This document shows positions 11,482-50,431 of a stretch of DNA of 64,000 nucleotides, piece by piece (the first letter of the stretch is position 1; each line of letters opens with the position of its first letter). Below the pieces are notes generated by a model. That model saw only the letters and a list, made by a program, of their open reading frames with translations. It did not search any database and was not told the DNA's origin. A program made the translations under genes and the position numbers. Origin of the DNA: an uncultured Planctomycetia bacterium (GTDB lineage: Bacteria; Omnitrophota; Gorgyraeia; 1-14-0-20-64-10). The stretch spans positions 28,688 through 92,687 of the forward strand of contig CAYJTM010000001.1 of the NCBI GenBank assembly GCA_964373055.1, in the 5' to 3' direction.

Positions 11482-12478
11482 GGGGACGGTAATAGATCGG
11501 CGCGCACCAGTGATTCTTAGAAACCCAGTCCGTATTCGGGAAGTCCCCTTCCCTCTTGAGGATCCGGTGGCAGGGCTGGTCGTACACCTTTCCGGTGGAG
11601 GGCTCCGCCGGCTCGAAGGTGATGAACTTGTAGTAGCCGGAGGTCATGCCCTCCGGCAGCGTCAGTCGGCGCGGGAACCGGGGATCCAGCACCCGCCGCG
11701 CGTAATCGTTCTTCCAGGCAACAATCTCCGGCAGCCGCTGGGTCTGCACACAGCCGATCGCGGCGGCGAACTCGCTCATTCGGAAGTTCATGCCCTCGAC
11801 GTCGTAGGAGTTTTTGCCGTAGTTGCGGTGCTTCCGGGCGAAGGCCTCCAGCTCCTTATGCCGGGTGACCAGCATCCCCCCTTCCCCGGTGGAGACGGTC
11901 TTGGTGGCGTAGAAGGAATAGATGCCGGCATCGCCCCAGCTGCCCGGTTTCCGGCCGTTCCATTCCGCGCCGTGCGCGTGCGCGCAGTCTTCCAACAGCC
12001 AGATCCCGTTCTTCCGGCAGTAGTCGGCGATCAGTTCCACTTCGAAAGCGATGTGCCCGCCGATGTGAACCAGCCAGGCCGCCTTCGGTTTAAAGCGCTC
12101 CACCTTGCGGATGAAGTCCTCGTAGGAGAGGCAGAGATCGTTTCGGTTGCAGTCCACGAACTCCACCCGTCCGCCCGCCTTCAGGACGGAGAGCGGAGTG
12201 GCCATGAAGGTGTTCGAAGGGCAAAGGACCGTCTCGCCCCGGACGCCGATGAACTCGAGAGCCGCCATTGCCGCCCCCGCCCAGCTGGAAGTGGCCACAG
12301 CCGGCAGGCCGTTCCACCGGGACCAGAGCTGCTCGAACCGCTCGGTGAAGGGTCCTTCGCTCCACCGCTCGGAGGCGACGATCGAATCCCACATCTCGTG
12401 CAGCCGGGGAAGATCCCGCCGGTCGAAACCGATCGAGAAGGCCTGGGACTGAGCCTGATCAGGAACGGAGAGCGGCAT
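11474..12478 (-). CDS. DegT/DnrJ/EryC1/StrS family aminotransferase
   Basis: Start at internal Met MPLSVPDQ (12478); ...SSWAGAAMAALEFIGV..., SFYATKTVSTGEGG (PLP lysine). The 105 aa upstream in the ORF track overlap the epimerase gene and are discarded. Confidence 0.78.
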   Translation of the reverse strand: MPLSVPDQAQSQAFSIGFDRRDLPRLHEMWDSIVASERWSEGPFTERFEQLWSRWNGLPAVATSSWAGAAMAALEFIGVRGETVLCPSNTFMATPLSVLKAGGRVEFVDCNRNDLCLSYEDFIRKVERFKPKAAWLVHIGGHIAFEVELIADYCRKNGIWLLEDCAHAHGAEWNGRKPGSWGDAGIYSFYATKTVSTGEGGMLVTRHKELEAFARKHRNYGKNSYDVEGMNFRMSEFAAAIGCVQTQRLPEIVAWKNDYARRVLDPRFPRRLTLPEGMTSGYYKFITFEPAEPSTGKVYDQPCHRILKREGDFPNTDWVSKNHWCAPIYYRPHA

Positions 12479-13403
12479 CCACCTTGCTCCAGCTCTGCTG
12501 CTGTTGCCGCTGCAGGGCCTGAGTCCAGTCCAGGTAGCGCCGCAGGCCCTCTTCAAAGGGGGTCGAGGCGCGCCAGCCCAGCTCCTGCTGGGCGCGAAGG
12601 GAGCAGGCCACCTTTCCCGAGAAGTCCCCCGGCCGGCCCGGCGTGTGCACGATCTCTCCCCGGCCGACGACCCGCTGGACCGCCTGCGCGATCTGAAGGA
12701 TCGAGACCCGGTCTTGGCCGTCCAGGTTGTAGACCCGGTTGGCGGCCGCGGGCTTAAGGGCCAGCACGATCCCCTCGGCCAGGTCCTCGACATAGATGAA
12801 CTGGCGGAATTGCTGCCCGTCGCCCGCCACGGTGATCGGTTCCCCCTTGAGGGCCTTCGACACGAACAGCGGGACGACGGCGCCGCTGCGGGCCCGGGGC
12901 CCGTAGGGGATCCCGAAGCGGAGGATGGTGTACGGCAGATGGTAGAGAGCCCCGTAGGAACGGCAATAGAACTCCGAAGCGATCTTGGTGGCGGTGTATA
13001 GGTGGGAGGGAGGCGGTATCGGTGTCTCCTCGTCCACCTCCGTTTCCGGGCAATCGCTGTAGACCCAGGTGGTGCTTCCGTAGATCACGCGCGGGGCGGA
13101 GCCGCGGCGGGCCGCCTCCAGGACGCAGATTGTTCCGCGCGTGTTCACCGTCTCGGCATAGGAAGGGTCCTCAAAAACCTCCTTCACGTCGGCGACGGCC
13201 GCCAGGTGGATGACGGCGTGGATCCCCGTCATCGCCAGGCGGAGCGCCTCGATGTCCAGGACCGAACCGATGAAATGCTCCACCCCCGCGTGGTAAGGCG
13301 AGCGCTGCTGGTCGAAGATGCACGGCTCCACGCCGTGCGCGGAAAGACGATCCACCACGTGCGAGCCGATGAATCCCGAACCGCCGGTGACGAGGACTCT
13401 CAT
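12459..13403 (-). CDS. NAD-dependent epimerase/dehydratase (SDR-type nucleotide-sugar enzyme)
   Basis: Start MRVLVTGGSGFIGSHV (13403, ATGA overlap with upstream gene); YxxxK present (YTATKIASE). Confidence 0.85.
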   Translation of the reverse strand: MRVLVTGGSGFIGSHVVDRLSAHGVEPCIFDQQRSPYHAGVEHFIGSVLDIEALRLAMTGIHAVIHLAAVADVKEVFEDPSYAETVNTRGTICVLEAARRGSAPRVIYGSTTWVYSDCPETEVDEETPIPPPSHLYTATKIASEFYCRSYGALYHLPYTILRFGIPYGPRARSGAVVPLFVSKALKGEPITVAGDGQQFRQFIYVEDLAEGIVLALKPAAANRVYNLDGQDRVSILQIAQAVQRVVGRGEIVHTPGRPGDFSGKVACSLRAQQELGWRASTPFEEGLRRYLDWTQALQRQQQQSWSKVDAALRS

Positions 13404-14374
13404 CTTTCTCCTTGTTGGTTCAGGTGACGTTGCAGAAGCCCTAAGGCCAACCGGGCGGCTTGGGTCTGAGACTCGACCGTGGCACCGGCAATGTGGGGGG
13501 TAATCACGATCTGGCCCGAACGGTGAAAGCGAAGCAGCGGCGACCGGTCTTGGGTTCCCAGGGTTTCCCCCTCCAGAACGTCCAGGCCGACCCGAAGGTC
13601 GGGCCGCCGATCGAGAACGGTTGCCAGGTCCCTTTCCACCAGGACCTCGCCACGGGAGGTGTTCACCAGGCACGCCCCGGCTTTAAGCCGGCCCAACAAC
13701 GCGGCGGTGACCATTCCGGTTGTTTCCCGGCTCAAGGAACAGCAAATGCAGACCGCGTCGGATCGGCTGAACAGATCTTCCAAGGAAACGGCCGGAGCGG
13801 CGGCGGAAACAACGAGCGGATCGTGGTAAACAACCTGGGCGTCGAAGGCCGCGCAGTACCGGGCGACCCGCCGTCCGATCCGGCCGAAACCGACCAGGCC
13901 GACCTGTTTCCCCTGCAGCTCATACCCCCGCAGCAGCTCCTCGCGGTCCCGCCAGCGGCCTTCCGAGACTTCTCGGATCGCCGTGTCCAGGCGCCGCAGC
14001 GTGTTGAGCAACAGCAGGAACGTGAACTCCGCGCTGGCCGAGATCTCGTTCAACCCCTCCCGGTCATCCAGCAGGCTGTAGACGGCGACGCCCCGTTCCC
14101 GGCAGGCCTTGAGATCCAAGTGATTGCTTCCGGTGGAGGGAGTCACGATCACCGACAGGGCCGGGAGATCCCGAAGCACGGCGCCGTCCACGTGGAATTG
14201 CTGGCCCGGATTGACCACCCAAGCCGTGAGCCCGGGGTCCGGCAGGAGCTCTTCCCGCTTCCAGATCTCACGGAAGGCGGTCGGCATCAGGCGCCGGAAC
14301 TCCCCCTGGAGATCCCCCAGGAAAGAGAACGGCGCGCTAAAAAGGCAGGAAGCGGTCTGGGTTTTAATCATCAT
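13400..14374 (-). CDS. D-isomer-specific 2-hydroxyacid dehydrogenase family protein
   Basis: Start MMIKTQ (14374, ATGA overlap); GLVGFGRIGRRVA NAD-binding motif; catalytic His region ITPHIAG. Confidence 0.78.
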   Translation of the reverse strand: MMIKTQTASCLFSAPFSFLGDLQGEFRRLMPTAFREIWKREELLPDPGLTAWVVNPGQQFHVDGAVLRDLPALSVIVTPSTGSNHLDLKACRERGVAVYSLLDDREGLNEISASAEFTFLLLLNTLRRLDTAIREVSEGRWRDREELLRGYELQGKQVGLVGFGRIGRRVARYCAAFDAQVVYHDPLVVSAAAPAVSLEDLFSRSDAVCICCSLSRETTGMVTAALLGRLKAGACLVNTSRGEVLVERDLATVLDRRPDLRVGLDVLEGETLGTQDRSPLLRFHRSGQIVITPHIAGATVESQTQAARLALGLLQRHLNQQGER

Positions 14375-15069
14375 CGGACCACCTCCCTGACTCGGTCCGA
14401 AAGCCTCCGGAACTCCTCCGGGGTCGCGCTGAGCGCGTGGTCCCGGATCACGGTCGAGCTCTTGTCCATCGTGAAATGCTTTTCCAGGTAGCGGGCGCCC
14501 CGGTCGATCGCCAGGAAGCAGGCGGAGAGATCGAGGCAGTGGTCGCTGTAGCCGTAGTAGCCCGATTCTTCGAACCGCTCCGGAAACCCCGCAAGGTCCG
14601 ACCCGAAGGCCGGATATTTGGAGCGGCAATAGATGTAGAAAAGGGTTTTTCCGTCCGGCGGCCCGAACGGGAACCGGGGTTCATCCCACATCCCCAGGGA
14701 GACGAAGGTCGGCTTCCCCTCCGCCAGGATCTTGCGGACGAGCTCCGGGCGATCCACCACGGTGCGGGAGGCCACCTTGTAGCGCGGAAGCTCCAATTCC
14801 CGCGCCCACTCCAGCGCCTCCTCCGTGAAGAGTGAGGCCATCAGCTCGATACCGGTTTCCACGCACCAGTCTTTCAGCCGGCGTACCCGCCCGAGGTCCA
14901 TCGCGTTGATCTCCCCCGGCCCGGATCTCCAGCCGAACTGGAACTTGGCGGCGTCCGCCCCGGCGAGCTTCGCCTGGCGGATCATCTCCCGGGCGCGATC
15001 CCAATCTCCGTCGTGGTTCAGCCCGATCTCAGCAACAAGCAGCATGGAGGGGCTCCAGGCATTTTTCAA
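14371..15069 (-). CDS. NeuB-like nonulosonic/ulosonic acid synthase, short form (232 aa, no SAF domain)
   Basis: VAEIGLNHDGD, AKFQ, YKVAS, GYSDHCLD, EKHFTMDK...RDHALSATPEE; second NeuB paralog in window. The start may be the internal Met at 15045. Confidence 0.72.
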   Translation of the reverse strand: MKNAWSPSMLLVAEIGLNHDGDWDRAREMIRQAKLAGADAAKFQFGWRSGPGEINAMDLGRVRRLKDWCVETGIELMASLFTEEALEWARELELPRYKVASRTVVDRPELVRKILAEGKPTFVSLGMWDEPRFPFGPPDGKTLFYIYCRSKYPAFGSDLAGFPERFEESGYYGYSDHCLDLSACFLAIDRGARYLEKHFTMDKSSTVIRDHALSATPEEFRRLSDRVREVVR

Positions 15070-15949
15070 AAGGGGCGGTGAACTCCACCATGTTCCGCCT
15101 CAGGTGAAACGGGGAGGTCTCATCGGTGTTGAAGCCGAAGAGGGCCGTGCAGGAAAGGGAGAAGCCGGCCGACCGCAGCAGGGCGACCGTCTCCTCATCG
15201 AAATGCCCCTCCTGCCCCTCCGGGTAGGAGAAAAGATCTACCGGCTCTCCCAGCTGGCGTTCGATGGCCTGCCGGCTGCCTTGGATCTGGGACTCTTTCC
15301 CTTCCCGGCTCAGATGGGTGAGGATCGCATGGTCCACCGTATGCGCGCCGAACTCGCAGAGACCGGAGCGCCGCATCTGCCGGACCTGATCCCAGGAAAG
15401 GGTGCGGTAATCGGGATAATCGTATCGGGGGTCCACACCCAGCCGCTGCTGCATCTGCGCCAGAACGGGCTCGATCAGACCCGGGGTCTGCTTCAAGGCG
15501 GCCTTGATCTGGCACAGCGCCGCCCTGCGGTCGTCCGGTGTCCGAAGGAGAAACCCAAGCTGCAGGGCGGGCAGGAAAAAATCCGCCTGAGCGGTTTCGT
15601 TGAGGAGGTACTCCACCTTGTCCACCCAGAAAACCCTCTCGGTTCCGATGTGGCCGGAGGAGAGAAAGAAGGTGGCCGGGATGCGCAGCCGTTCCAGGAT
15701 GGGAAACGCCACGTTGTAGTTGTTCTCAAACCCGTCGTCGAAGGTCACGGCGACCGAGCTCTCCGGCAGGGCCCGCCGGGAACTCAGGCGGACCAGCTCG
15801 CGCAGAGACAGGACTTGGTATTCCGCCGCAAGCCGCTCCATCTGACGCTTAAATTCCCCCGCGGGGATCTGCTTGCGGGACGAGTTCTCGATCCCGCGGT
15901 GATTCTGCTCCGTGACGCCGTGGTAAAGGAGGATGACGAATCGACTCAT
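15029..15949 (-). CDS. Polysaccharide deacetylase (NodB-like), second copy
   Basis: Start MSRFVILLYHGV (15949, ATGA overlap); VTFDDGFENNY, HTVDH motifs. Confidence 0.8.
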   Translation of the reverse strand: MSRFVILLYHGVTEQNHRGIENSSRKQIPAGEFKRQMERLAAEYQVLSLRELVRLSSRRALPESSVAVTFDDGFENNYNVAFPILERLRIPATFFLSSGHIGTERVFWVDKVEYLLNETAQADFFLPALQLGFLLRTPDDRRAALCQIKAALKQTPGLIEPVLAQMQQRLGVDPRYDYPDYRTLSWDQVRQMRRSGLCEFGAHTVDHAILTHLSREGKESQIQGSRQAIERQLGEPVDLFSYPEGQEGHFDEETVALLRSAGFSLSCTALFGFNTDETSPFHLRRNMVEFTAPFEKCLEPLHAACC

Positions 15950-16653
15950 GGGGCCATCCCATCCAGGTGTCGCTGCAGGCGCCGGCCGGCCAGCCACCGC
16001 TTGAGGGGCCCGATGGCGGAGAGGGTGGTGCCCCGGGTCAGGTCCTGGGGCACGGCGGCAGGGAGATTCCCGAGCTGAAGCTCGCTCAGGATCTGCTCCG
16101 CCATCTCGGCGGCCAGGAGTGTGGTGTGATAACGCAGGTGGTGTGCTCTCATGCCGGACCGCAGCTGCAGCCGGCGCTGGAGGAGCACTGGGCCGGTGTC
16201 CAGCTTCTCCTCGAGGAGGTGGAGGGTCGTCCCGACGTTGCCGAAATCCCGCTGGTACACGGCCCAGAGGTCGGAATCCAGGCCCCGGTAATCGGGCAGG
16301 ATTCCCCGATGGACGTTGAGGCTGAGACGTCCCAGCCGGTAGACCGCCGGGAGGATCCGGCCGGTCCCGAAGGTAACGAGCAGATCCGGTTGGACCCGGC
16401 GGATCAGGGCTTCGCATTCCGGCTGATTCCCGCTGCGGAACCGATGGAGGCCTCCCGGCGCCTCGAACCGCTCCGAAGCGCCGTTGAACGACTGCTGCTC
16501 AAACCGGTCCTGGAGGCGCCCGAAAGGCGAGTGGGCCGGACGCGCCGGGCCTTTTTCCTCCAGCACGACGGTTAACTCCGCGCAGCGGGCGATGCGGCCC
16601 GCGAAGTACCGGTGGTGACGGGTGTCCGTCGTCAGCAGCAGGCAGCGGATCAC
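15946..16653 (-). CDS. Formyltransferase (Fmt/ArnA N-domain-like; probable sugar N-formyltransferase)
   Basis: 235 aa; SLNVHRGILPDYRGLDS matches the formyl_trans_N catalytic His/Asp region. Confidence 0.75.
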   Translation of the reverse strand: MIRCLLLTTDTRHHRYFAGRIARCAELTVVLEEKGPARPAHSPFGRLQDRFEQQSFNGASERFEAPGGLHRFRSGNQPECEALIRRVQPDLLVTFGTGRILPAVYRLGRLSLNVHRGILPDYRGLDSDLWAVYQRDFGNVGTTLHLLEEKLDTGPVLLQRRLQLRSGMRAHHLRYHTTLLAAEMAEQILSELQLGNLPAAVPQDLTRGTTLSAIGPLKRWLAGRRLQRHLDGMAP

Positions 16654-18101
16654 GGGGCCACCTTCTCCGGTGCTCCGGTTCTCGGGACCGGGGTCTGCGC
16701 AGCTGACGCCTGATGTGCCTGCCGCTGCCGCAGCAGGAACTCGATCAGCTGCAGATCGAAGGGGGTTTTGATCTGGAGACTTTCCTCCCGCGTCATCGTG
16801 ATGTGGCCAACCCTGCGGCCGACGAGATCCTGTTCGGTCAGGATGTCCCGCCAGAGGGCCCGGATCGCCCCGTTGCTCTCGTACAGGCCCTCCCGTTCGA
16901 GGCGGATCTGCCGGTGCATCGCCGGGTTGAGCGGCGTCAGCCCGTTCGGGCCGTGCACGAAATGGAGGTCGGTGTCTTCGCAGACGCTCACCACGCTGTC
17001 GGCCTCATACAGGATCAGGGTGTTCACCGCTTCGCGGATGTGCGCGGCGGTGCGCAGAGGCGCGTGCACGCTCAGCAGCACCAGGATGTCCGGCCTGCTC
17101 CCAAGCTTTTGTTCCAGGTGGGTCACCGCGTCCAGCGCCACTTCGGCTTCCGAGGTCCTCTCCCCGGAGAGCCCCGGAGAGCGCAGCATCGCGGAGATCC
17201 CCTGGACGCCCTGGCAGTGCCGCGCCACCTCGGGGTCATCGGTGCTGACCAGGATCTGCTCGAACAGCTCGGCCTGCAGCGCAGCCTCCAGCGTGTAGTC
17301 GATGAGCCGGGCCCCGGAGAGCTCTTTCAGCACGACGTTGGGCAGATGGGCGTAGCTGTTTTTCGCCTGCACGATCGCGGCGATCTTCAAGCCCGCCGTG
17401 CTGTTTCGGCTATCCACCATCGCCTGCTTGATTTGGCGGCGGGCCTCCAACAGACGCTCCTGCTTGCTGGACTGGGAATCGGCATGCTGACGGTAGAAAA
17501 AGAGGGGCGTCGCCACATTGGCGATCTCGTGCTGGGGGAGCAGCTTCAGCCACAACTCGTATCCGTCCTGGGCGCTGTGGCGCTCGTCATAGCCGCCCAG
17601 CTTTTTCAGCACCTCCCTGCGGACCAGCGTGCCGGCCCCGTGAGCGGGCAGGTCCAGGAACTGGGCCTCCTTCCCGATCCGTTTGCGGTGCTCCACGCCG
17701 AGGTAGTTGCCGGCTTCGTCCACGTAGATGTAGTTCGGGTAAACGAGTGCCACCTCCGGATGCCGATCCAAATAAGAGGTCAACACGAGCAGCGCGTTCT
17801 CATCCAGGAAATCGTCGGCGTCCAGCCGCAGGATAGTGTCGCCCCGCGCCGCTTGCAGCGCGGCATTGGCGCCAAACTGCAATCCGCGCGGCGGCGAATG
17901 CCGGATCACCCGGATCCGGTCCGGATGCTCCTTCTGGAAGCCCTCCGCCACCCGCGCCGTCTCATCCTCGGAGCCGTCGTCCACGATGATCAGCTCCCAA
18001 TCCGCGCGGCTCTGGCTCAAGACCGACTCGATGGCCTGCGCGAGATACCGCCCGTAATGGCGGCACGGGATGTAAACCGTCACCTTGGGGATCGAGCTCA
18101 T
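16650..18101 (-). CDS. Bifunctional: N-terminal GT2 glycosyltransferase + C-terminal acylneuraminate (CMP-NeuAc) cytidylyltransferase-like domain
   Basis: Start MSSIPKVTVYIPC (18101, ATGA overlap). N-terminal IIVDDGSEDET...DADD is GT2. C-terminal KIAAIVQAKNSYAHLPNVVLKELSGARLIDYTLEAA...LLSVHAPLR...ESNGAIRAL matches CTP_transf_3. Confidence 0.78.
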   Translation of the reverse strand: MSSIPKVTVYIPCRHYGRYLAQAIESVLSQSRADWELIIVDDGSEDETARVAEGFQKEHPDRIRVIRHSPPRGLQFGANAALQAARGDTILRLDADDFLDENALLVLTSYLDRHPEVALVYPNYIYVDEAGNYLGVEHRKRIGKEAQFLDLPAHGAGTLVRREVLKKLGGYDERHSAQDGYELWLKLLPQHEIANVATPLFFYRQHADSQSSKQERLLEARRQIKQAMVDSRNSTAGLKIAAIVQAKNSYAHLPNVVLKELSGARLIDYTLEAALQAELFEQILVSTDDPEVARHCQGVQGISAMLRSPGLSGERTSEAEVALDAVTHLEQKLGSRPDILVLLSVHAPLRTAAHIREAVNTLILYEADSVVSVCEDTDLHFVHGPNGLTPLNPAMHRQIRLEREGLYESNGAIRALWRDILTEQDLVGRRVGHITMTREESLQIKTPFDLQLIEFLLRQRQAHQASAAQTPVPRTGAPEKVAP

Positions 18102-19192
18102 GGAAGCTCCTTGGCCTTTCCGGTCCGTTGGGATTTGAGCGCCCGCATGAACTCTTCCTCGCTCAGGCCCGTGATCTGAAGGTAGTAATCCAGCTGCCCC
18201 GGCCGCTGGGGATCGAACTTCTTGATCAGCTCGAATCCCTCCTCGCGGGTGAGCAGCCCGGCCCGCACATCCTGGCTGACGTGATCGGTGGCCCGCCCGA
18301 AACCCCGTTTCACGAACTTGGCGTAGTCGTGCACGCCGGCCATCCTGCACTCCACGCTCTTGTACCCCTTGTAGGTCCCCTCGACGTTGTCTTCCCGCCA
18401 GCCGTAAGCGGATTTAAGAAACTCCACTTGCCGCTCGCCGTCCCAGAAGAGGTAGTCGCCGAGAAAGATCCCGCGGACGCCGGCGGCCTGGAGCTCCTCC
18501 GGGGTCGGAAACCGGAACGGGTAGAGGTCCCGGCCCGAGAGCCCCTCCCCCTCCATCCCTTCCACCCCCACCTTCATCGAGACCTTGGGATAGTAGCCCT
18601 CGTCGAACCGGACGGCGTCCTGGTAGCTTGCCTTGTTTCCCGCCTCGGCGACCGATTCCCCCCAGATGATCAAGGGGACGTTGAACTTGACAGCCACCTG
18701 CAGAGGGAAGGAGCCCACGCCCGCGTGGCAATGCCAGCAGGGATCCCCGATCCGGTAGAGGGATTTTTGGGCGATCCGGTTCACCAGGTCGCGGGCCGGG
18801 CTGAACAGCAGGTGGTCCACCCCCATCTTCTCCAGGATGTTCCAGAGATTGTATTCGCCGGTCTCGGTGAACCACCGGTGGCTGAAGGTGCAGGCCAGCG
18901 GCTTCATCCCGTATTGTTTCACCAGCACGTGAAGCTGGAAGGCGCTGTCCTTGCCTCCGCTGATCGGAACCAGGCAGTCGTAGTTGTCTCCGCTGGAGCG
19001 CTTGGCCTCTTCCAGGATCCCGCGCAGCTGCCGTTCTCGTTCGGCCCAATCGATACGCATCTTCTGTTCCGAGCTCTGGCACGCGCGGCAGACCCCCATC
19101 TCATCAAAGAGGGTTCCTTCGGAAGTCTCCGGCATGCAGCAGCGGACGCAGGTGCGCAGGTTCGCGAACAGAGGCCGGCCCGGCGCGCTCAT
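18098..19192 (-). CDS. N-acetyl sugar amidotransferase, PseA/WbuX family (PP-loop ATPase)
   Basis: 364 aa; N-terminal Cys-rich zinc ribbon (CVRCCMPE...CRAC), SGGKDS PP-loop, strong overall similarity to the PseA/WbuX family as recalled. Confidence 0.85.
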   Translation of the reverse strand: MSAPGRPLFANLRTCVRCCMPETSEGTLFDEMGVCRACQSSEQKMRIDWAERERQLRGILEEAKRSSGDNYDCLVPISGGKDSAFQLHVLVKQYGMKPLACTFSHRWFTETGEYNLWNILEKMGVDHLLFSPARDLVNRIAQKSLYRIGDPCWHCHAGVGSFPLQVAVKFNVPLIIWGESVAEAGNKASYQDAVRFDEGYYPKVSMKVGVEGMEGEGLSGRDLYPFRFPTPEELQAAGVRGIFLGDYLFWDGERQVEFLKSAYGWREDNVEGTYKGYKSVECRMAGVHDYAKFVKRGFGRATDHVSQDVRAGLLTREEGFELIKKFDPQRPGQLDYYLQITGLSEEEFMRALKSQRTGKAKELP

Positions 19193-20280
19193 CAGTTCAT
19201 CTTCGCGGCGGCCGCGAGGAACCGGCGCGCTTCCATCTCGGCCCGTTGCACCGCCTCTTCCGGAGGGCCATCCAGGATCGTAAAGGGGTTCTTCTCTTTG
19301 CGGATCGTCTTCAGGATCCGACCGGTGTCACCCGAGCAGGCTTCCACCAAAGACAAGAATCCACGGGCCTTGTCCTCAAACCGGCGCTCGTAGGTCCGGA
19401 GCCGATGGGAGAGGTCAGCCGCGCTGTCCCGGGTCCCGCCGTCGATCGCGTCGAGGAGCTCCGCGCGGGAAAGCGGCCGGGCCGCGCGGGCCAGCGTGTA
19501 GTACGCGCCCGGGATCCCCTCGAGGGGCTCGGAGGTGAACCGGATCGGCTTGAAGCCGAAGCGCAGCAGCGCCAGCTTCAGCGTCCGGTTCGAGAAATAG
19601 CGGTAATGGTTGTGGTTGTAATATTCCAGCGGGGAGCCCCACATCGCGTGGCTGCGGGTGCGCATCAGCAGCAGCCCGCCCTCCTCCAACACGAAGCGGC
19701 AGCGGCGCATCGCGCGGGAGAAATCGTAGACGTGCTCGAACGTGCCGAGGCTGACCGCCAGCGAGAACTCCCCTTTCCGGAACGGCAGGTTCTCGGCGTC
19801 GCCGATCCGCACTGGCAGCCGCAGGCCCCGGCCCGTCTTCACCGAGCCGACGTCCGGGTCCACGCCGGCGCACCGCCAGCCGGCTTTCAGGAACGGGACC
19901 ATCGTGGCGCCCGCCGAGCAGCCGATGTCCAGCATCTTGCCGGCGGAGCTGGCCGCCTTTTCGATGAAGCGAAGGATTTGTTCCCCCCGGTGTGTTTGCC
20001 GCCTCAGGTATTCTGCCGTGGGGGCGGAGCGGCCGGTGGCGACGTGCCGGTAGGTCTTACGGTAATAATCGATGTAGAACCGGCGCTCGTACCGCGGGTT
20101 GATCATCACGAACCCGCAGCGCCCGCAGACCCGCACCGGCAGCGGGCCGTAGACGCCCGGCCCGCCGACGCGGCCCTTGGACTGCAGCAGGCTGAACCGC
20201 CTGCTGTCGCAGATCTCGCAGGGGATCGTCCGCGGACGGTAGCGGCCGTTCATGCCGATGATTTCCAGATATTTTTTCAT
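19192..20280 (-). CDS. Zinc-ribbon SAM-dependent methyltransferase (class I); possible CmoB-analog partner of the adjacent CmoA
   Basis: 362 aa; CEICDSRRF...CGRCGF ribbon, MLDIGCSAGATM motif I, GTFEHV motif. Confidence 0.78.
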   Translation of the reverse strand: MKKYLEIIGMNGRYRPRTIPCEICDSRRFSLLQSKGRVGGPGVYGPLPVRVCGRCGFVMINPRYERRFYIDYYRKTYRHVATGRSAPTAEYLRRQTHRGEQILRFIEKAASSAGKMLDIGCSAGATMVPFLKAGWRCAGVDPDVGSVKTGRGLRLPVRIGDAENLPFRKGEFSLAVSLGTFEHVYDFSRAMRRCRFVLEEGGLLLMRTRSHAMWGSPLEYYNHNHYRYFSNRTLKLALLRFGFKPIRFTSEPLEGIPGAYYTLARAARPLSRAELLDAIDGGTRDSAADLSHRLRTYERRFEDKARGFLSLVEACSGDTGRILKTIRKEKNPFTILDGPPEEAVQRAEMEARRFLAAAAKMN

Positions 20281-21011
20281 GGTTTCAGCGCGATGAACGA
20301 GGCGAAGTTATACCAGCGGAAATACAGCTCCGGCGCGGCAAAACCGTTTCGCTGGAGCAGCTCGGCGTTCTCTTTTACCTTGTACGGGACCAGCACATTC
20401 TCCAGAGCTTCCCTTTTTTGCGCAATCTCCATTTCTGAATAGCCTTTCTTGCGCTTGAACTCGTAGTAGAGGTCGATATACATGCTGTTCAGCGTGGGGT
20501 CTTCCGCGAGCACCTTTTCCGACAGCAGCAGGCAGCCCCGCGGCCGCAAGGCCTGGAAGATGTTCCGGATCAGCGTGTCCCGGTACAGGGGGCGAACGAA
20601 CTGCAGCGTGTAGTTCATGATCACCACGCTGACGGGCCCAAGATCGAATTCCTGGTGGAGGTCCTGCTGGCGCAGGTCGCAGCGTTGAAGCAAGCCCAGC
20701 CGGCCCAGGTTCTCCCGGCTCTTGTCCAGCATCGCCTTCGAAAGGTCGAAGCCCACAATGCGGACCGTGGGGTCCGGAATGCCCTGACAGAGCAGGGCCA
20801 TCGTGGTTCCGGTTGAACAGCCCAGATCGGCCACCCCGCTGCCCGGCTGCGCGAAATTCCGGGCCAGCTCGACCGTCATGCGCTGCGCCTCCCTGTAGAG
20901 CGGCACGCTGCGCTCCAGCATATCGTCGAACACGTTGGCCACCGTCTCGTCGAACTGGAAGCCGGACGCCCTCTGCACCGGGGAATCGAAAATCTTGTCC
21001 CGGCCGCTCAT
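20277..21011 (-). CDS. cmoA: Carboxy-S-adenosyl-L-methionine synthase (CmoA family)
   Basis: 244 aa; N-terminal FQFDETVANVFDDMLERSVPLY and C-terminal KKGYSEMEIAQKREALENV align closely with E. coli CmoA ([20 protein letters not shown] ... ANGYSELEISQKRSMLENV); same length class. Confidence 0.8.
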   Translation of the reverse strand: MSGRDKIFDSPVQRASGFQFDETVANVFDDMLERSVPLYREAQRMTVELARNFAQPGSGVADLGCSTGTTMALLCQGIPDPTVRIVGFDLSKAMLDKSRENLGRLGLLQRCDLRQQDLHQEFDLGPVSVVIMNYTLQFVRPLYRDTLIRNIFQALRPRGCLLLSEKVLAEDPTLNSMYIDLYYEFKRKKGYSEMEIAQKREALENVLVPYKVKENAELLQRNGFAAPELYFRWYNFASFIALKP

Positions 21012-22381
21012 GAACGGCTCTCCGCCATCGCCGGGTCTCTCTGGGCCATTTCCACGGGGCTCCTCTCTTGCAGAAACCCTTCCTGCGTCAGCAGGCGGGC
21101 GAATTGGAGCAGCGGGTAATCCCCGTATTTTCGCCCCACCAGTTGCGCGCCGAACGGGAGCCCGGAGGGAGCGGTGAAAACCGGTATGCTCAGGGCCGGA
21201 ACACCGCAGAAGGTCCAGATCAGGCAGTTGTCCGGCAGGTCCCTTCCCTCGAGGCCGAGCGGGGCCTCTGAGCCGGTGGAGAGCGTAAGCAGCAGGTCTA
21301 CTGCTTTCTCCTCAAACAGGCGATCCAAATCCTGGGTGGCCCTTGCCTGAAAATCCAGGCAGTCCCGGTACTCGGCCGGGCCGACCTTCGCCCCTTCCTC
21401 CAGCATGGAGCGGAACAACCCGCTTAAGGCGTCCGGGGTCCGGTTCTCCGCCTTGAAGTAGTAGGCCAGCATGCGGCAATAGATCCGCTGGTGGACGTCG
21501 TGGATCCTTGCAAAATCGGGCGGCAGGTTCACATCGACAACCGAAACACCCCGCACCGCCGCAAGCCGGCCGACGAACCGCTCGAGCGCTTCTCTCGCGT
21601 AGGGCTTCGCCTGCTCCCACTTGGGCCCCCGCACGAAACCGACCCGCCAGCCGGAGGGGTCCGGCGCCTCAGCCGTGGGATCCACACGCTGCTGGACCAC
21701 TGGGTGGTTGCTCCCTCGAACGCGCGTCCGGTCGAAAATCAGCCGGAGATCGTCGATGTTCCGAGCCAAAAAGGAAACGTGATCCAACGTGTCCGTTGTC
21801 TTGAGCATGCCCGTCCTGGGAAGCAACCCGAAGCTGGGCTTGAAGCCATAGATGCCGCAGTAGCTGGCCGGCCGGATCGTGGAGCCGGCGGTCTGGCTGC
21901 CCAAGGCGAGGGGGACCATTCCCGTGGCGACCGCCACGGCCGAGCCGCTGGAAGAGGTGCCCGGTGAGCGGGCGAGATCGTGGGGGTTCCGTGTGGGCCC
22001 CGGCGCGTGGACCGCGAACTCACTGGTGACCGTCTTGCCCAGCACAATCCCGCCGCTGCGTTTCAACGCGGCCACCACCCGGGCGTCGTTTCCTGGGGTG
22101 AAGCCCTTCCAGAGGGGGCTCCCCATCTCGGTCGGCATCTCGGTTGTGTTGAAGATGTCCTTCACCCCGATTGGGGCTCCCTCCAGTGGGCCGGCGGTTC
22201 CGCCCCGTGCCCTGGAGTGGTCCGCTTCCTCCGCGTGCCGCAACGGGATCTCCGGATTCAGGAAGGCCCAGGCGCGGAGCTGCGGTTCCAGCGAATCGGC
22301 GCGAGATAAACAGGAGCGCGCCCATTCCGCGGAGCGGAGTTTCCCCGCCCGGATCTCCGGAATCGCCCTAGAGGCCGACAT
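21008..22381 (-). CDS. Amidase-signature family amidase (GatA-like)
   Basis: GTSSSGSAVAVATG (GGSSGG-type motif), Ser-cisSer-Lys context. Start likely MSASRAIPEIRAGKL (22381); the ORF track starts at 22426. Confidence 0.78.
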   Translation of the reverse strand: MSASRAIPEIRAGKLRSAEWARSCLSRADSLEPQLRAWAFLNPEIPLRHAEEADHSRARGGTAGPLEGAPIGVKDIFNTTEMPTEMGSPLWKGFTPGNDARVVAALKRSGGIVLGKTVTSEFAVHAPGPTRNPHDLARSPGTSSSGSAVAVATGMVPLALGSQTAGSTIRPASYCGIYGFKPSFGLLPRTGMLKTTDTLDHVSFLARNIDDLRLIFDRTRVRGSNHPVVQQRVDPTAEAPDPSGWRVGFVRGPKWEQAKPYAREALERFVGRLAAVRGVSVVDVNLPPDFARIHDVHQRIYCRMLAYYFKAENRTPDALSGLFRSMLEEGAKVGPAEYRDCLDFQARATQDLDRLFEEKAVDLLLTLSTGSEAPLGLEGRDLPDNCLIWTFCGVPALSIPVFTAPSGLPFGAQLVGRKYGDYPLLQFARLLTQEGFLQERSPVEMAQRDPAMAESRS

Positions 22382-22392
22382 CTGCCAGGGGT

Positions 22393-23157
22393 TCACGCGG
22401 CGCACGCCTCTTTCTGCGACATCCATTCCAGCGGAAGCCGACCGGCCGCAGCGGCTTGCATCACCGCGTGAAGATCAAAGTCCGGATCCCACGGATGGCA
22501 GGCCGTGAAGACCTCCCGGACCCCATCGAGGTTGTGAGGGTAATTAACGGCAAACGTCCACTCCGGTTTGTGGAGCTGAGCCCAGGGGCCTTCGGCCGCC
22601 AGGTAGCCGATCGAAAATTCTTCGGGATGTTCCGTGAAATAGCGTGTCGAATGCTCCCGGTCCATCGGATCGGTGGTCCGCGCAGCCACCCGGTCAAGCG
22701 CGTCGGCCGAGTAGACCTGGGCCCGGATCCCAATGGGGAATCGGGGCAGCCCCGCAGGGGCGTGCGGGTATTCCCGGGTCACATTGACGGCATAGTCAAA
22801 ACGGCCGGACTGATAGAGCCCCACCACGGCCTCGATCAGCGCCGAGTGGACCAGCGGGTTGTCGCCCAAGAGCTCCACGATGGCGTCCCCTCCGAAACGT
22901 TTCCATGCCTGATGGACGCGCCCGAGCACATCCTCGGCGGGGCCGCGGTGACAGAGAACGCCCAGGCGCTCTGCCCACAAGCTGAGGGGGGCGTCCTCCG
23001 GGCAGTCCGTCGTGGCCAGGACGATCCGGTCCAGACAGCGCGCCTTGGAAACCCGCTCCAGCATCCGTTCGATCATCGGTTTGCCCAGGATCAGCTGCAT
23101 TGTTTTGCCTGGAAACCGGCTGGAGCCCATCCGCGCCACTAGGATCGCCGTCGTCAT
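22393..23157 (-). CDS. Cytidylyltransferase, SpsF/PseF/NeuA-like (paralog of 3447..4211)
   Basis: Start MTTAILVARMGSSRFPGK (23157, ATGA overlap); 254 aa, same length and signature as 3447..4211. Confidence 0.82.
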   Translation of the reverse strand: MTTAILVARMGSSRFPGKTMQLILGKPMIERMLERVSKARCLDRIVLATTDCPEDAPLSLWAERLGVLCHRGPAEDVLGRVHQAWKRFGGDAIVELLGDNPLVHSALIEAVVGLYQSGRFDYAVNVTREYPHAPAGLPRFPIGIRAQVYSADALDRVAARTTDPMDREHSTRYFTEHPEEFSIGYLAAEGPWAQLHKPEWTFAVNYPHNLDGVREVFTACHPWDPDFDLHAVMQAAAAGRLPLEWMSQKEACAA

Positions 23158-23735
23158 GAGCCGTTTCCGAAGCGCCGCAGGAACTCGTTTTTGAGAACGC
23201 CGTATTCGATCACGTCCAGGTATCGGTTCTGTTTGAACGCCGCTTGGCGCCGGCACCCCTCTTCCCTCATCCCGAGGGAGCGGGCAAGCCGCCTCATCGG
23301 CGCGTTGGTTTCGAAGGTTCCGCAGTAAACCCGGTTCAGATTCAGCGTGAAAAAGGCGTGCCGGAGCAGCAAGGCCGCCGCCTCCTTCGAATACCCCTTA
23401 CCCCAGCAGGACCGGTCGCCGATGAGGATGGCGAACTCCCCGGAACGGGAGACCGGATCGATGCTCTTTAAGGCCACGTTCCCGATGTGCTGCCTGTCGC
23501 TCCGGCGGGCCACGGCCAGGATGAGCTCGCTCGCGTTGGAATGGGCCCGCTCGACGTACCGGAGCGCCTGCTCTCTCGAGTAAGGGAACCGGTGGTGCCC
23601 GTTCCCGGCGCAGACCACCTCATCGTTGAACCACTCCGCGTAGGGGCCGAAGGCGTCCTGGCGGCGGAGGGGCCTTAAAAAAACCTTTTTTCCTTGGAGG
23701 AAAGGAACCCCCTGGGAATGGACAGATTTCATCAT
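23154..23735 (-). CDS. GNAT-family N-acetyltransferase (PseH/RimL-like)
   Basis: Start MMKSVHSQ (23735); acetyl-CoA binding-like segment RQHIGNVAL...GKGYSKEA. The N-terminal 71 aa of the ORF track are discarded. Confidence 0.72.
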   Translation of the reverse strand: MMKSVHSQGVPFLQGKKVFLRPLRRQDAFGPYAEWFNDEVVCAGNGHHRFPYSREQALRYVERAHSNASELILAVARRSDRQHIGNVALKSIDPVSRSGEFAILIGDRSCWGKGYSKEAAALLLRHAFFTLNLNRVYCGTFETNAPMRRLARSLGMREEGCRRQAAFKQNRYLDVIEYGVLKNEFLRRFGNGS

Positions 23736-23763
23736 GTAACTTGTTATGATAGCACGAATTCTG

Positions 23764-25059
23764 TTACCGGGGAGCGGATTCGAGGAGTGCGGGGGCGTTC
23801 TCGAGGACCTTGTGAAAAGCGGCACTAACCTGGTCCATATGCGTCTGCGTGAGGGGCCAGCGGCAGAACCGCCCGAAGAGGAGCTCCCGCTCAAACAGAG
23901 CTTCCGCGGCGGGACAGAGGCCGCGTGGATAGCGGTAGGGAGCTCCACCCGGCCCGTTCCGGAACGGGAAGCCCTCTTTCCCGATGGCGATCCCCTTCTG
24001 GAAGAGCGGCTCCCAGTAGACGGGTCGGGCGTAGTCGCTCCTCAAGGGGATCCCCTCCGCCTGGACGGCCCGCAGGAACAGCTCACGCGGCAGTCCGCAG
24101 CGCTTCTCGTCGTAGCGCATGGCGTAGAAGTAATAGACGTGCCGGCTGTCCGGGTCGAGCGCCCGCTGAGGCCGCAGGCCGGGCAGCGAGGCCAGCTCTT
24201 TGTCCAGCGAGGCGGCCAGCCGCAGGCGATGCTGCGTCAGCTCTTCCAGCCGGCGCAGTTGCACGGAGGCGATGGCCGCTTCAATTTCGGTCATGCGGGT
24301 GTTTCCGCCGAAGGTGTTCTCCAGGCGCTCCACCCCCAGGGCTTCCACCGCGGTTTCGCCGTGATTCCGGATCAGCCGCAGGCGCAGGGCCAGCTCCTCG
24401 TCCTCCGTCACCATCACCCCGCCCTCCCCGGTCTGGATCGTCTTGTGGACGTTGAGGCTGAACCCCCCGATCCGACCCAGCGTGCCCACCGGCTTGCCCC
24501 GGTACGCCGCCCCCGGGGCCTGCGCGCAGTCCTCGAGGACGGCCAGGCCGTGGCGGCGGGCGACCTCCAGCAGCGGCTCCATCGGGGCGGGATGCCCGAA
24601 CAGGTGGACCACCACCAGGGCCCGTGTCCGCTCGGAGATCCGTTCCTCCACTGAAACGGGGTCGATGCAGAAGGTCTGCGGGTCCACGTCCGCAAAGATC
24701 GGGACCGCCCCGTAGGCCAGCGGGCAGACGGCGGAGGCGGACATGGTCAGCGGCGGGACGATCACTTCATCGCCGGGACCGATTCCCAGCGCTCCGATGG
24801 CGGCGTACAGACCGGAGGTCAGGGAGTTGAAAGCGATCGCGTGGCGCACCCCAAAATGGCCCGCCCACTCCTGTTCCAGCTTGCGCACCCGTGGGCCACC
24901 CAGGAAACCGGGCCCGGGTCCCGCTTGGAATCCGGAGAGGGTCCCCGAATCCAGAACCTCGAGGACGGCCTGCTTCTCCTCCTTCCCGATGGTGGAGGCC
25001 TCGGGCCACCTCTCTCGGCAAACGGGGACGCCTCCCAGGAGGGCTAGCTGTTCAGGCAT
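23764..25059 (-). CDS. DegT/DnrJ/EryC1/StrS family aminotransferase
   Basis: 431 aa; EEKQAVLEVL..., SLNVHKTIQTGEGG PLP-lysine; paralog of the C-terminal half of gene 1. Confidence 0.85.
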   Translation of the reverse strand: MPEQLALLGGVPVCRERWPEASTIGKEEKQAVLEVLDSGTLSGFQAGPGPGFLGGPRVRKLEQEWAGHFGVRHAIAFNSLTSGLYAAIGALGIGPGDEVIVPPLTMSASAVCPLAYGAVPIFADVDPQTFCIDPVSVEERISERTRALVVVHLFGHPAPMEPLLEVARRHGLAVLEDCAQAPGAAYRGKPVGTLGRIGGFSLNVHKTIQTGEGGVMVTEDEELALRLRLIRNHGETAVEALGVERLENTFGGNTRMTEIEAAIASVQLRRLEELTQHRLRLAASLDKELASLPGLRPQRALDPDSRHVYYFYAMRYDEKRCGLPRELFLRAVQAEGIPLRSDYARPVYWEPLFQKGIAIGKEGFPFRNGPGGAPYRYPRGLCPAAEALFERELLFGRFCRWPLTQTHMDQVSAAFHKVLENAPALLESAPR

Positions 25060-50426: not shown

Positions 50427-50431
50427 AGTTT

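What the first reader, a model, noticed from the sequence alone, without database searches (positions are those of the whole stretch)
19192..21011. CmoA ortholog and partner methyltransferase embedded in a glycan operon: possible carboxy-SAM-dependent sugar modification
The 244-aa gene matches CmoA (carboxy-S-adenosyl-L-methionine synthase) along its whole length, including the RSVP...Y region and the YSE(L/M)EI(A/S)QKR..LENV block. It overlaps by 4 bp a zinc-ribbon class I methyltransferase, in the position CmoB occupies in the cmoA-cmoB pair. Cx-SAM is so far known only as donor for tRNA cmo5U. Placement between a sugar amidotransferase and an amidase in a tightly coupled glycan operon suggests carboxymethylation of a glycan, amino sugar or protein acceptor.
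Basis: partly seen in the sequence, partly recalled or inferred. Interest (0 to 1): 0.8.

Follow-up and report, generated by a model that had tools for sequence, protein, structure and literature searches.

The report
Carboxy-SAM gene pair in sugar operon
A gene for the enzyme that makes carboxy-SAM, a rare cofactor best known from tRNA modification, is paired with an uncharacterised sugar-type methyltransferase inside a sialic-acid-like surface-sugar operon. The same pairing recurs in dozens of environmental bacteria, which points to an undescribed carboxymethyl decoration of bacterial surface sugars.

Summary
Window 20277-21011(-) encodes a full-length CmoA-family protein. It scores 242 bits on TIGR00740 (cutoff 193), is about 45% identical to E. 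coli CmoA, and keeps Arg199 and the SAM-contacting residues. Its stop overlaps by 4 bp (ATGA) the start of a 362-aa Zn-ribbon class I methyltransferase, here called MT18. An amidase lies upstream and a WbuX amidotransferase downstream, in a glycan cluster longer than 64 kb with NeuB, DegT and cytidylyltransferase genes.

MT18 is not CmoB. Its closest fold is the NDP-sugar C-methyltransferases (TcaB9).

The main new evidence is comparative. Of 87 MT18-family loci, 59 have a CmoA-family gene within 100 bp on the same strand, in either order, almost always in nonulosonic-acid clusters. No cmoB occurs in the window or in any MT18 locus. By contrast, 54 of 80 genomic cmoA loci have cmoB within 10 kb.

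The best reading is a dedicated Cx-SAM synthase plus a new sugar carboxymethyltransferase.

RiPP, microcin C and phage DNA uses are published.
- The acceptor is unknown.
- Most partner CmoA-like genes belong to a divergent clade without Arg199.
- Nothing has been tested biochemically.

Verdict: new variant of a known kind, interest about 0.68.

The parts
20277..21011 (-). CmoA-family protein, 244 aa; predicted carboxy-S-adenosyl-L-methionine synthase (prephenate + SAM -> Cx-SAM)
   Evidence: TIGR00740 at 242 bits, above the cutoff of 193. Full-length alignment to 4gek and 1im8. Keeps Y39, D62, G64, S66, D89, D117, N132, F137, E164 and R199 in E. coli numbering (residue roles from PMC3663124).
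19192..20280 (-). MT18: 362-aa Zn-ribbon + class I methyltransferase + helical C-terminal domain; predicted Cx-SAM-dependent carboxymethyltransferase acting on a sugar nucleotide
21008..22426 (-). Amidase-signature (GatA-like) enzyme, translationally coupled to the CmoA gene; possibly the ammonia-generating partner of the WbuX enzyme (inferred)
   Evidence: PF01425 at 261 bits. ATGA overlap with the CmoA start. The order amidase, CmoA, MT18 is kept in L083 and L084.
18098..19192 (-). WbuX/PseA/PtmG-family N-acetyl sugar amidotransferase (PP-loop ATPase)
   Evidence: TIGR03573 at 345 bits, above the cutoff of 203. TGATG junction with MT18. Kept downstream of MT18 in L083 and L092.
16650..18098 (-). 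GT2 glycosyltransferase fused to a CTP_transf_3 cytidylyltransferase domain. The likely start is the ATG at 18098; the listed ORF runs on to 18350.
   Evidence: Pfam Glycos_transf_2 at 104 bits and CTP_transf_3 at 46 bits. The equivalent 470-aa gene follows WbuX in L083.
22393..23256 (-). CTP_transf_3 cytidylyltransferase (SpsF/PseF-like)
   Evidence: PF02348 at 83 bits. Same position in L001 and L084.
23154..23948 (-). GNAT N-acetyltransferase (PseH-like)
   Evidence: PF13302 at 84 bits; weak TIGR03585 PseH hit.
23764..25059 (-). DegT/PseC-type sugar aminotransferase
   Evidence: PF01041 at 296 bits.
12459..16653 (-). Downstream nonulosonic-acid genes: formyltransferase (15946-16653), polysaccharide deacetylase (15029-16417), NeuB-like synthase (14371-15069), D-2-hydroxyacid dehydrogenase (13400-14629), NAD epimerase/dehydratase (12459-13673)
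   Evidence: Pfam and NCBIfam hits. The same order is found in L083.

Best explanation
The amidase, CmoA-like, MT18 and WbuX genes form a translationally coupled tailoring module inside a nonulosonic-acid (sialic-acid-like) glycan pathway.

- **Step 1 (strongly inferred from sequence).** The CmoA-like enzyme converts SAM and prephenate into carboxy-SAM.
- **Step 2 (inferred from conserved gene pairing and fold).** MT18 resembles NDP-sugar C-methyltransferases. It uses Cx-SAM instead of SAM to put a carboxymethyl group (+58 Da) on a nucleotide-linked sugar of the pathway.
- **Step 3 (speculative).** The new carboxylate, or a neighbouring N-acetyl group, is then amidated. In this window the WbuX PP-loop enzyme would do this with ammonia from the amidase. 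In most other loci an AsnB-type amidotransferase would do it. This parallels the phage CmoA/CmoX/CmoY logic, in which the carboxymethyl group is a handle for amide formation.

The modified sugar is then activated and transferred to a surface glycan by the cytidylyltransferases and glycosyltransferases of the cluster.
For: **CmoA identity.** The protein exceeds the TIGR00740 cutoff and aligns full-length with solved CmoA structures. Arg199, which salt-bridges the cofactor carboxylate, and the SAM contacts are conserved.

**Coupling in the window.** ATGA, ATGA and TGATG junctions link the four genes. No minus-strand terminator-like site lies inside the module.

**Conserved pairing.**
- The order amidase, CmoA, MT18 (then WbuX where the contig continues) is kept at 77-78% CmoA identity in L083 and L084.
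- Of 87 MT18-family loci, 59 have a CmoA-family ORF within 100 bp on the same strand, 26 upstream and 33 downstream.
- Of the 49 loci with flanks on both sides, 37 have it adjacent and 41 have it within 10 kb.
- Reverse sampling from divergent CmoA-like proteins found MT18 adjacent in both informative cases.

**Not the tRNA pair.**
- cmoB lies within 10 kb of 54 of 80 genomic cmoA loci. None occurs in the window or in any MT18 locus.
- None of those 80 cmoA loci has MT18.
- The window's CmoA clade sits beside CmoA genes from RiPP-like clusters and cmoB-less lineages.

**MT18 and sugars.**
- The active-site His aligns with TcaB9 His225.
- The neighbours of MT18 are NeuA, NeuB, NeuC, 2-hydroxyacid dehydrogenase and AsnB.

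**Precedent.** Non-CmoB methyltransferase folds are known to use Cx-SAM: MccB-CTD and CmoX. CmoY is an AsnB-like amide ligase acting on the carboxymethyl group.
Against: - No biochemical data exist for any member.
- 53 of the 59 adjacent CmoA-like partners belong to a divergent clade. It scores about 150 bits on TIGR00740, below the cutoff, and lacks Arg199 (E/T/A/S instead) and Asn132. It carries R/K one helical turn later. The conserved partnership therefore need not always involve Cx-SAM.
- I could not identify a Cx-SAM-specific residue in MT18. The family-specific R207 swaps charge with E219 in a short clade that still neighbours CmoA, so it looks structural.
- Eight MT18 loci with adequate flanks have no CmoA within reach.
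- The window holds at least four other methyltransferases that could be the Cx-SAM user.
- WbuX enzymes are known for acetamido-to-acetamidino conversion, not carboxylate amidation.
- The source genome was not recovered, so a second cmoA or a distant cmoB cannot be excluded.
Confidence: 0.58

Rival explanations
1. Two ordinary methyltransferases. The CmoA-like protein, and especially its divergent relatives, has lost or never had Cx-SAM synthase activity. Together with MT18 it performs plain SAM-dependent methylations of the nonulosonic acid. A known example is N-methylation of the acetamidino group, as PtmH does next to PtmG.
For: - The divergent partner clade lacks Arg199 and Asn132 and falls below the TIGR00740 cutoff.
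- A WbuX-family enzyme followed by a methyltransferase is a known pair that makes CMP-Leg5AmNMe7Ac.
- MT18 has only generic methyltransferase Pfam hits.
Against: - The window's protein is a full, above-threshold CmoA with every cofactor-contacting residue, including Arg199.
- CmoA is not known to methylate anything.
- Canonical-type and divergent-type CmoA genes substitute for each other beside the same MT18 family, which argues for one shared function.
- The divergent clade keeps the CmoA-specific lid motifs and a compensating R/K at position 203.
Confidence: 0.17
2. Cx-SAM is made here but used by an enzyme other than MT18. Candidates are other methyltransferases of the cluster, or a protein or lipid acceptor outside the glycan pathway. 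MT18 would be an ordinary SAM-dependent sugar methyltransferase that merely travels with the pathway.
For: - The window encodes further methyltransferases at 39716-41140, 42011-43315 (TcaB9 type), 56315-57076 and 60112-61212.
- No Cx-SAM-binding signature could be defined in MT18.
Against: - Only MT18 is consistently adjacent to CmoA across 59 loci whose other gene content varies.
- None of the other methyltransferases appears among the conserved neighbours.
- The 4-bp start/stop overlap suggests stoichiometric co-expression.
Confidence: 0.12
3. This is the genome's housekeeping tRNA cmoA, lying in a glycan operon by accident of gene order. cmoB would sit elsewhere, and MT18 would be unrelated to it functionally.
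For: - The protein is a bona fide CmoA by sequence.
- 26 of 80 genomic cmoA loci also lack cmoB within 10 kb.
- The rest of the genome could not be examined.
Against: - Adjacency to MT18 is conserved across relatives sharing only 34-45% MT18 identity, in both gene orders. Chance does not explain that.
- The translational coupling on both sides points the same way.
- The nearest CmoA relatives are in glycan or RiPP-like clusters, not beside cmoB.
Confidence: 0.06

Closest known systems
CmoA/CmoB (tRNA cmo5U34 pathway, E. coli)
   Same: The first enzyme is the same family and presumably catalyses the same reaction (SAM + prephenate -> Cx-SAM). It is followed immediately by a class I methyltransferase-fold gene.
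   Different: - The partner is not CmoB. There is no TIGR00452 or PF08003-level match, and it lacks the CmoB N-terminal domain.
- The context is a glycan operon, not a stand-alone pair.
- The presumed acceptor is a sugar, not ho5U in tRNA.
Phage CmoA/CmoX/CmoY (5-carboxymethylcytosine and its glycine amide; PMC12783734)
   Same: CmoA has been recruited next to a methyltransferase of a different substrate class. An ATP-dependent amide-forming enzyme of the asparagine-synthetase/PP-loop kind sits alongside it, so the carboxymethyl group can act as a handle.
   Different: - The acceptor there is DNA cytosine C5, and the methyltransferase is a C5-MTase homologue.
- Here the partner is TcaB9-like and the locus makes nonulosonic acids.
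- Amidation of the carboxymethyl group here is only a hypothesis.
MccS/MccB-CTD (Bacillus microcin C) and TglE/TglF (3-thiaglutamate)
   Same: A CmoA homologue supplies Cx-SAM to a dedicated transferase in a secondary-metabolite cluster. MccB-CTD shows that a methyltransferase fold unrelated to CmoB can be strictly Cx-SAM specific.
   Different: The acceptors are a peptidyl-nucleotide and a peptide thiol. MT18 shows no sequence relationship to either transferase.
PtmG (Cj1324) / PtmH (Cj1325) of Campylobacter and Legionella ORF 28 / ORF 8
   Same: A WbuX-family amidotransferase acts with a methyltransferase that alkylates a CMP-nonulosonic acid, giving CMP-Leg5Am7Ac and then CMP-Leg5AmNMe7Ac.
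   Different: That system transfers methyl from SAM and has no CmoA. MT18 was not seen to be related to PtmH, though this was not tested directly. Most MT18 loci have AsnB rather than WbuX.
TcaB9 / MtmC / KijD1 NDP-sugar C3-methyltransferases
   Same: - N-terminal four-Cys Zn-binding domain plus a class I methyltransferase domain.
- The conserved Tyr and His positions of MT18 align with the TcaB9 catalytic Tyr76/His225 region.
   Different: - Sequence identity is only about 15%.
- The C-terminal Methyltransf_14 domain is replaced by a helical bundle.
- Glu224 is Asn in MT18.
- The window has its own genuine TcaB9-type gene at 42011-43315.
- MT18 alone is linked to CmoA.

Membership tests
CmoA (carboxy-SAM synthase; TIGR00740) | Full-length match to the curated equivalog model above its cutoff | tested here: met
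   242.1 bits against a cutoff of 193.3, covering residues 4-243 of 244.
CmoA (carboxy-SAM synthase; TIGR00740) | Arg199 salt bridge to the cofactor carboxylate, plus the SAM-contact residues Tyr39, Asp62, Gly64, Ser66, Asp89, Asp117, Asn132, Phe137 and Glu164 | tested here: met
   All are conserved in the window protein. Residue roles come from PMC3663124. Asn90 is Leu; it contributes a main-chain contact.
CmoA (carboxy-SAM synthase; TIGR00740) | Prephenate-dependent conversion of SAM to Cx-SAM | not testable with these tools
   Needs an enzyme assay.
CmoA/CmoB tRNA cmo5U system | cmoB encoded next to or near cmoA | tested here: not met
   A CmoB HMM was built from 47 neighbours, one of them verified at 368 bits on TIGR00452. 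It finds nothing above 43 bits in any MT18-family locus and about 20 bits in the 64-kb window. The rest of the genome is unavailable.
CmoB (tRNA U34 carboxymethyltransferase; TIGR00452 / PF08003) | MT18 matches the CmoB model and has its N-terminal domain with Lys91, Tyr200 and Arg315 | tested here: not met
   MT18 has no CmoB hit in NCBIfam or Pfam. Only about 23 bits to PDB CmoB 7ct8 over the Rossmann core.
TcaB9-type NDP-sugar C-methyltransferases (PF08421 + PF13489 + PF08484) | N-terminal Zn-binding domain and class I methyltransferase domain in the same arrangement | tested here: met
TcaB9-type NDP-sugar C-methyltransferases (PF08421 + PF13489 + PF08484) | C-terminal Methyltransf_14 domain and Pfam-level family match | tested here: not met
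   No PF08421 or PF08484 hit. The C-terminus is predicted helical. Identity is about 15%.
TcaB9-type NDP-sugar C-methyltransferases (PF08421 + PF13489 + PF08484) | Catalytic His225, Glu224 and Tyr76 equivalents | tested here: inconclusive
   In a two-step alignment, MT18 H225 and Y77 align with His225 and Tyr76, while Glu224 is Asn. The alignment has low identity and no coordinates were available.
WbuX/PseA/PtmG N-acetyl sugar amidotransferase (TIGR03573), gene 18098-19192 | Match above the curated cutoff | tested here: met
   345.5 bits against a cutoff of 203.2.
Cx-SAM 'handle plus amide ligase' systems (CmoA/CmoX/CmoY type) | CmoA, a dedicated transferase and an ATP-dependent amide-forming enzyme encoded together | tested here: inconclusive
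   Gene content fits. WbuX is adjacent here, and AsnB lies within about 50 bp of MT18 in 18 loci and just beyond CmoA in 5 more. AsnB and WbuX are common in glycan clusters anyway, and no activity is known.

The most novel reading that the evidence does not exclude
A previously undescribed carboxymethylated (possibly carbamoylmethylated) nonulosonic acid decorates the surface glycans of many environmental bacteria, including abundant marine ones. It would be made by a new family of Cx-SAM-dependent sugar carboxymethyltransferases (MT18) working with either canonical CmoA or a large divergent CmoA clade that lacks Arg199. This would be the first use of carboxy-SAM in carbohydrate chemistry.
Probability: 0.5. 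Interest if true: 0.8.

Novelty: new variant of a known kind. Interest (0 to 1): 0.68.

Why it matters
Carboxy-SAM is a rare cofactor. Its known acceptors are tRNA, two peptide antibiotics or metabolites, and phage DNA. A sugar acceptor would add carbohydrates to that list and define a new tailoring reaction for sialic-acid-like sugars. These sugars shape phage recognition, immune evasion and cell-surface charge.

The cassette (NeuA, NeuB, NeuC, 2-hydroxyacid dehydrogenase, MT18, CmoA-like) is common in marine metagenomes, and one member is annotated as Pelagibacteraceae. The chemistry may therefore be abundant in the ocean.

The work also flags a large CmoA-like clade without the hallmark Arg199. 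Its activity is an open and directly testable question. MT18 would in addition be a natural carboxymethyltransferase scaffold for biocatalysis.

Tried and rejected
1. **Finding the source genome.** A genome-contig scan with the CmoA protein returned nothing closer than 54% identity. Cluster look-ups gave no accession or organism for the window proteins. The question of a second cmoA/cmoB pair therefore stays open.
2. **CmoB homology of MT18.** Rejected.
3. **A Cx-SAM-binding signature in MT18.** R207 is Arg in the family and Glu in 72% of outgroup relatives. However, a short clade with E207/K219 still sits next to CmoA, and the CmoA-less loci keep R207. It is probably a structural salt bridge, so I dropped it as a marker.
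4. **MT18-CmoA fusion proteins.** None found among 149 representatives.
5. **Separate subfamily for CmoA-less MT18 loci.** They fall into two clades. One of them has CmoA 5-9 kb away in sister loci, and the motifs do not differ.
6. **Regulatory elements.** No Rfam family, promoter-like site or convincing terminator in or around the module.
7. **Literature.** No paper in the library combines Cx-SAM terms with nonulosonic, pseudaminic or legionaminic acid terms. A Campylobacter coli hit was only a cmoB annotation. SugarBase does not mention carboxymethyl sugars.
8. **Flagellin glycosylation island.** Considered, but no flagellin or Maf gene was seen. The ABC transporter, the GT1+DUF218 gene, and KpsS-like genes in related loci point to a capsule or other polysaccharide. 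This is not settled.
Full report
**1. Observation**

All genes of the region lie on the minus strand.

ORF 20277-21011 (244 aa) matches the NCBIfam equivalog model for carboxy-SAM synthase CmoA (TIGR00740) from end to end. It scores 242 bits against a curated cutoff of 193, E 6.5e-72. It aligns over residues 1-243 with the solved E. coli (4gek) and H. influenzae (1im8) CmoA structures, E about 1e-51.

The residues that contact the cofactor in E. coli CmoA are listed in PMC3663124. They are Tyr39, Asp62, Gly64, Ser66, Asp89, Asp117, Asn132, Phe137 and Glu164, plus Arg199, which salt-bridges the extra carboxylate. All are conserved in the window protein.

The stop codon of this gene overlaps the start of ORF 19192-20280 (362 aa, called MT18 here) in the sequence ATGA. 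The upstream amidase (21008-22426; PF01425, 261 bits) overlaps the CmoA start in the same way. MT18 runs into the WbuX-family N-acetyl sugar amidotransferase (18098-19192; TIGR03573, 345 bits) through TGATG. No minus-strand terminator-like site lies inside these four genes.

**2. Surroundings**

The whole 64-kb window is one minus-strand glycan cluster. It contains:

- two NeuB-type synthases, two DegT aminotransferases, an NAD epimerase/dehydratase and two CTP_transf_3 cytidylyltransferase domains;
- a PseH-like GNAT, a formyltransferase and polysaccharide deacetylases;
- two D-2-hydroxyacid dehydrogenases and an AsnB-type amidotransferase;
- a PEP mutase fused to a nucleotidyltransferase, a sulfotransferase and an ABC exporter;
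- several GT1, GT2 and GT87 glycosyltransferases, a B12 radical-SAM enzyme and a genuine TcaB9/MtmC-type NDP-sugar C-methyltransferase.

This is a nonulosonic-acid (sialic-acid-like) glycan locus. No flagellin or Maf gene was seen.

**3. What MT18 is**

MT18 hits only generic class I methyltransferase Pfam families. It has no CmoB match.

It belongs to a compact family of 360-378 aa. Invariant motifs include four Zn-ribbon cysteines, LDxGC, E182-H183 and GSPLEYYNHNH. In a library of 1.84 billion representatives, only about twenty clusters match it full-length.

A profile alignment to the window's own TcaB9-type protein has 83% probability. It places MT18 His225 on the catalytic His225 of TcaB9 and Tyr77 on Tyr76, while Glu224 is Asn. 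The C-terminal domain differs: it is helical and has no Methyltransf_14 match.

So MT18 looks like an enzyme that alkylates a nucleotide-linked sugar. It is not a member of the TcaB9 Pfam family.

**4. Comparative evidence for coupling**

Close relatives of the window's CmoA (77-78% identity; L083, L084) keep the order amidase, CmoA, MT18. In L083, WbuX, GT2/CTP, formyltransferase, deacetylase and NeuB follow. The L084 contig ends at MT18.

Distant MT18 relatives (34-45% identity; L088, L089, L090) also have a small methyltransferase nearby whose best NCBIfam hit is CmoA (235, 147 and 156 bits).

I then collected 80 more MT18-family loci from metagenomes and scored every ORF with local HMMs:

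- Of 87 distinct loci, 59 have a CmoA-family ORF within 100 bp on the same strand.
- CmoA is upstream in 26 of these and downstream in 33.
- Among the 49 loci with at least 800 bp on both sides, 37 have it adjacent and 41 have it within 10 kb.

With roughly one cmoA per genome, such adjacency cannot be chance (inference).

The other recurrent neighbours are a 2-hydroxyacid dehydrogenase (43 loci, usually abutting MT18), NeuA-type cytidylyltransferase (39), NeuB (36), NeuC-type epimerase (34) and AsnB (23).

Sampling in the opposite direction gave the same picture. I started from three divergent CmoA-like proteins chosen only for contig length. Both informative cases showed NeuA-NeuB-NeuC-2-hydroxyacid dehydrogenase-MT18-CmoA-like. 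The third contig was truncated.

**5. Not the tRNA pair**

In 80 genomic cmoA loci from GTDB species representatives, a verified cmoB (TIGR00452, 368 bits) lies immediately downstream in 47 and within 10 kb in 54. None of these loci has MT18, the amidase or WbuX. Conversely, no cmoB is found in the window or in any MT18 locus.

In a neighbour-joining tree, the window's CmoA clade sits inside the canonical family, in a branch whose members with known context are never next to cmoB. That branch contains:

- the L088/L096 glycan type;
- P0013 and P0023, each followed by another novel methyltransferase beside C39-peptidase exporters; P0013 also sits with an NHLP leader and four B12 radical-SAM genes;
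- cmoB-less Nitrospinota and Actinomycetota.

**6. An important complication**

Only six of the 59 adjacent partners are canonical-type CmoA (window, L083, L084, L092, L088, L096). The other 53 form a separate monophyletic clade.

- They align with CmoA over the full length and keep Tyr39, Gly64, Ser66, Phe137, Glu164 and the lid motifs.
- They have E/T/A/S at position 199 and L/Y/F at position 132.
- They carry R/K at position 203, one helical turn after 199. This looks like a charge swap of the canonical Arg199/Glu203 pair.
- They score about 150 bits on TIGR00740, below the cutoff.
- The clade is large (2,467 hits at E <= 1e-20) and mostly marine. One member is annotated as Pelagibacteraceae.

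Whether these proteins make Cx-SAM is unknown. Canonical and divergent types replace each other beside the same MT18 family, and MT18 proteins with canonical partners form one clade. The simplest reading is a shared function, but this is inference.

**7. Mechanism proposed**

- *Strongly inferred:* the window's CmoA-like enzyme makes Cx-SAM.
- *Inferred:* MT18 uses it to carboxymethylate a nucleotide-linked sugar of the nonulosonic-acid pathway.
- *Speculative:* the product is then amidated. In the window the candidates are the WbuX PP-loop enzyme with the GatA-like amidase as ammonia source. Elsewhere an AsnB-type amidotransferase abuts MT18 or CmoA.

The amidation idea follows the phage system, in which an asparagine-synthetase-like ligase (CmoY) amidates the carboxymethyl group that CmoX installs.

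An alternative for this window is carboxymethylation of the acetamidino nitrogen made by WbuX. This would parallel PtmG/PtmH, which make CMP-Leg5AmNMe7Ac.

The TcaB9-like active site and the tightly linked 2-hydroxyacid dehydrogenase also allow C-alkylation next to a keto group, or O-alkylation of a 2-hydroxyacyl substituent.

The acceptor cannot be decided from sequence. I could not define a Cx-SAM-binding residue in MT18. The family-specific R207 behaves as a salt-bridge partner of E219.

**8. Comparison with what is known, and novelty**

Published cases include TglE/TglF, MccS/MccB-CTD (a methyltransferase fold unrelated to CmoB and strictly Cx-SAM specific) and phage CmoA/CmoX/CmoY.

Recruiting CmoA next to a new transferase is therefore a known kind of system. 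What is new is the glycan setting, the TcaB9-like partner family and the divergent CmoA clade.

In the searchable library, no paper combines Cx-SAM terms with nonulosonic-acid terms. None of the 54 papers since 2019 that mention Cx-SAM concerns glycans. I rate this a new variant of a known kind.

**9. Limits**

- The source genome is not among the GTDB representatives searched (best hit 54% identity), and no accession could be recovered. A second cmoA or a distant cmoB cannot be excluded.
- Eight MT18 loci with adequate flanks show no CmoA.
- All functional statements beyond family membership and gene linkage are inference.

Noticed in passing
L085-L087 (gene at 10001-10708 in L085) and L175/L176 (gene at 7001-7732): CmoA homologues about 61-62% identical to the window's are each followed by a 260-287-aa methyltransferase. 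The two partner methyltransferases are 56% identical to each other, and the L085 copy, the one scanned, has no NCBIfam match. They sit beside C39-peptidase ABC exporters, and L085 also has an NHLP-type leader and four B12 radical-SAM genes. This looks like a second, apparently undescribed CmoA plus non-CmoB methyltransferase cassette in RiPP-like clusters.
   Followed up: partly
L089-L171, e.g. L090 9080-9778; L172 7001-7705: A large, mostly marine, monophyletic CmoA-like clade has 2,467 hits at E <= 1e-20, one of them annotated Pelagibacteraceae. It lacks Arg199 and Asn132 but carries R/K at position 203. It is annotated in databases as tRNA (cmo5U34)-methyltransferase, yet it sits in NeuA-NeuB-NeuC clusters.
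   Followed up: partly
L008-L017, L021, L025, L030, L036, L039, L051: CmoA loci from Nitrospinota lack cmoB within 10 kb. Twelve cmoA loci, Nitrospina/Nitrospirae MAGs among those listed, instead share a conserved gene of about 530 aa immediately upstream. This may be yet another non-tRNA pairing.
   Followed up: no
window 42011-43315 (-): A genuine TcaB9/MtmC-type NDP-sugar C3-methyltransferase (Methyltransf_13, _23 and _14; E 1.5e-60 to 4rv9). The glycan therefore probably also contains a C-methyl branched sugar.
   Followed up: partly
window 36666-38423 (-): A PEP mutase fused to a nucleotidyltransferase domain, with a pyruvate-kinase-barrel-like gene (30062-31096) and an HpcH aldolase (54352-55107) in the same cluster. 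This suggests a phosphonate decoration of the same glycan.
   Followed up: no
window 50001-52000 (ORF 50432-52189, 585 aa, no Pfam hit): G+C drops locally to 0.55 against about 0.64 elsewhere, over an unannotated ORF. It could be a polymerase- or ligase-type membrane protein, or a recent insertion.
   Followed up: no
window 25052-27040, 9148-11481, 6860-9226 (-): Three long ORFs (662, 777 and 788 aa) inside the operon have no Pfam or NCBIfam match. In L084 the position upstream of the amidase is held by a 687-aa radical-SAM protein, and in L083 by a 471-aa protein with only a faint Radical_SAM hit.
   Followed up: no
L163-L171 (e.g. L169 9980-10885): A short (about 300 aa) MT18 clade lacks the C-terminal helical domain. 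It has E207/K219 in place of R207/E219 but is still followed directly by a divergent CmoA-like gene.
   Followed up: partly
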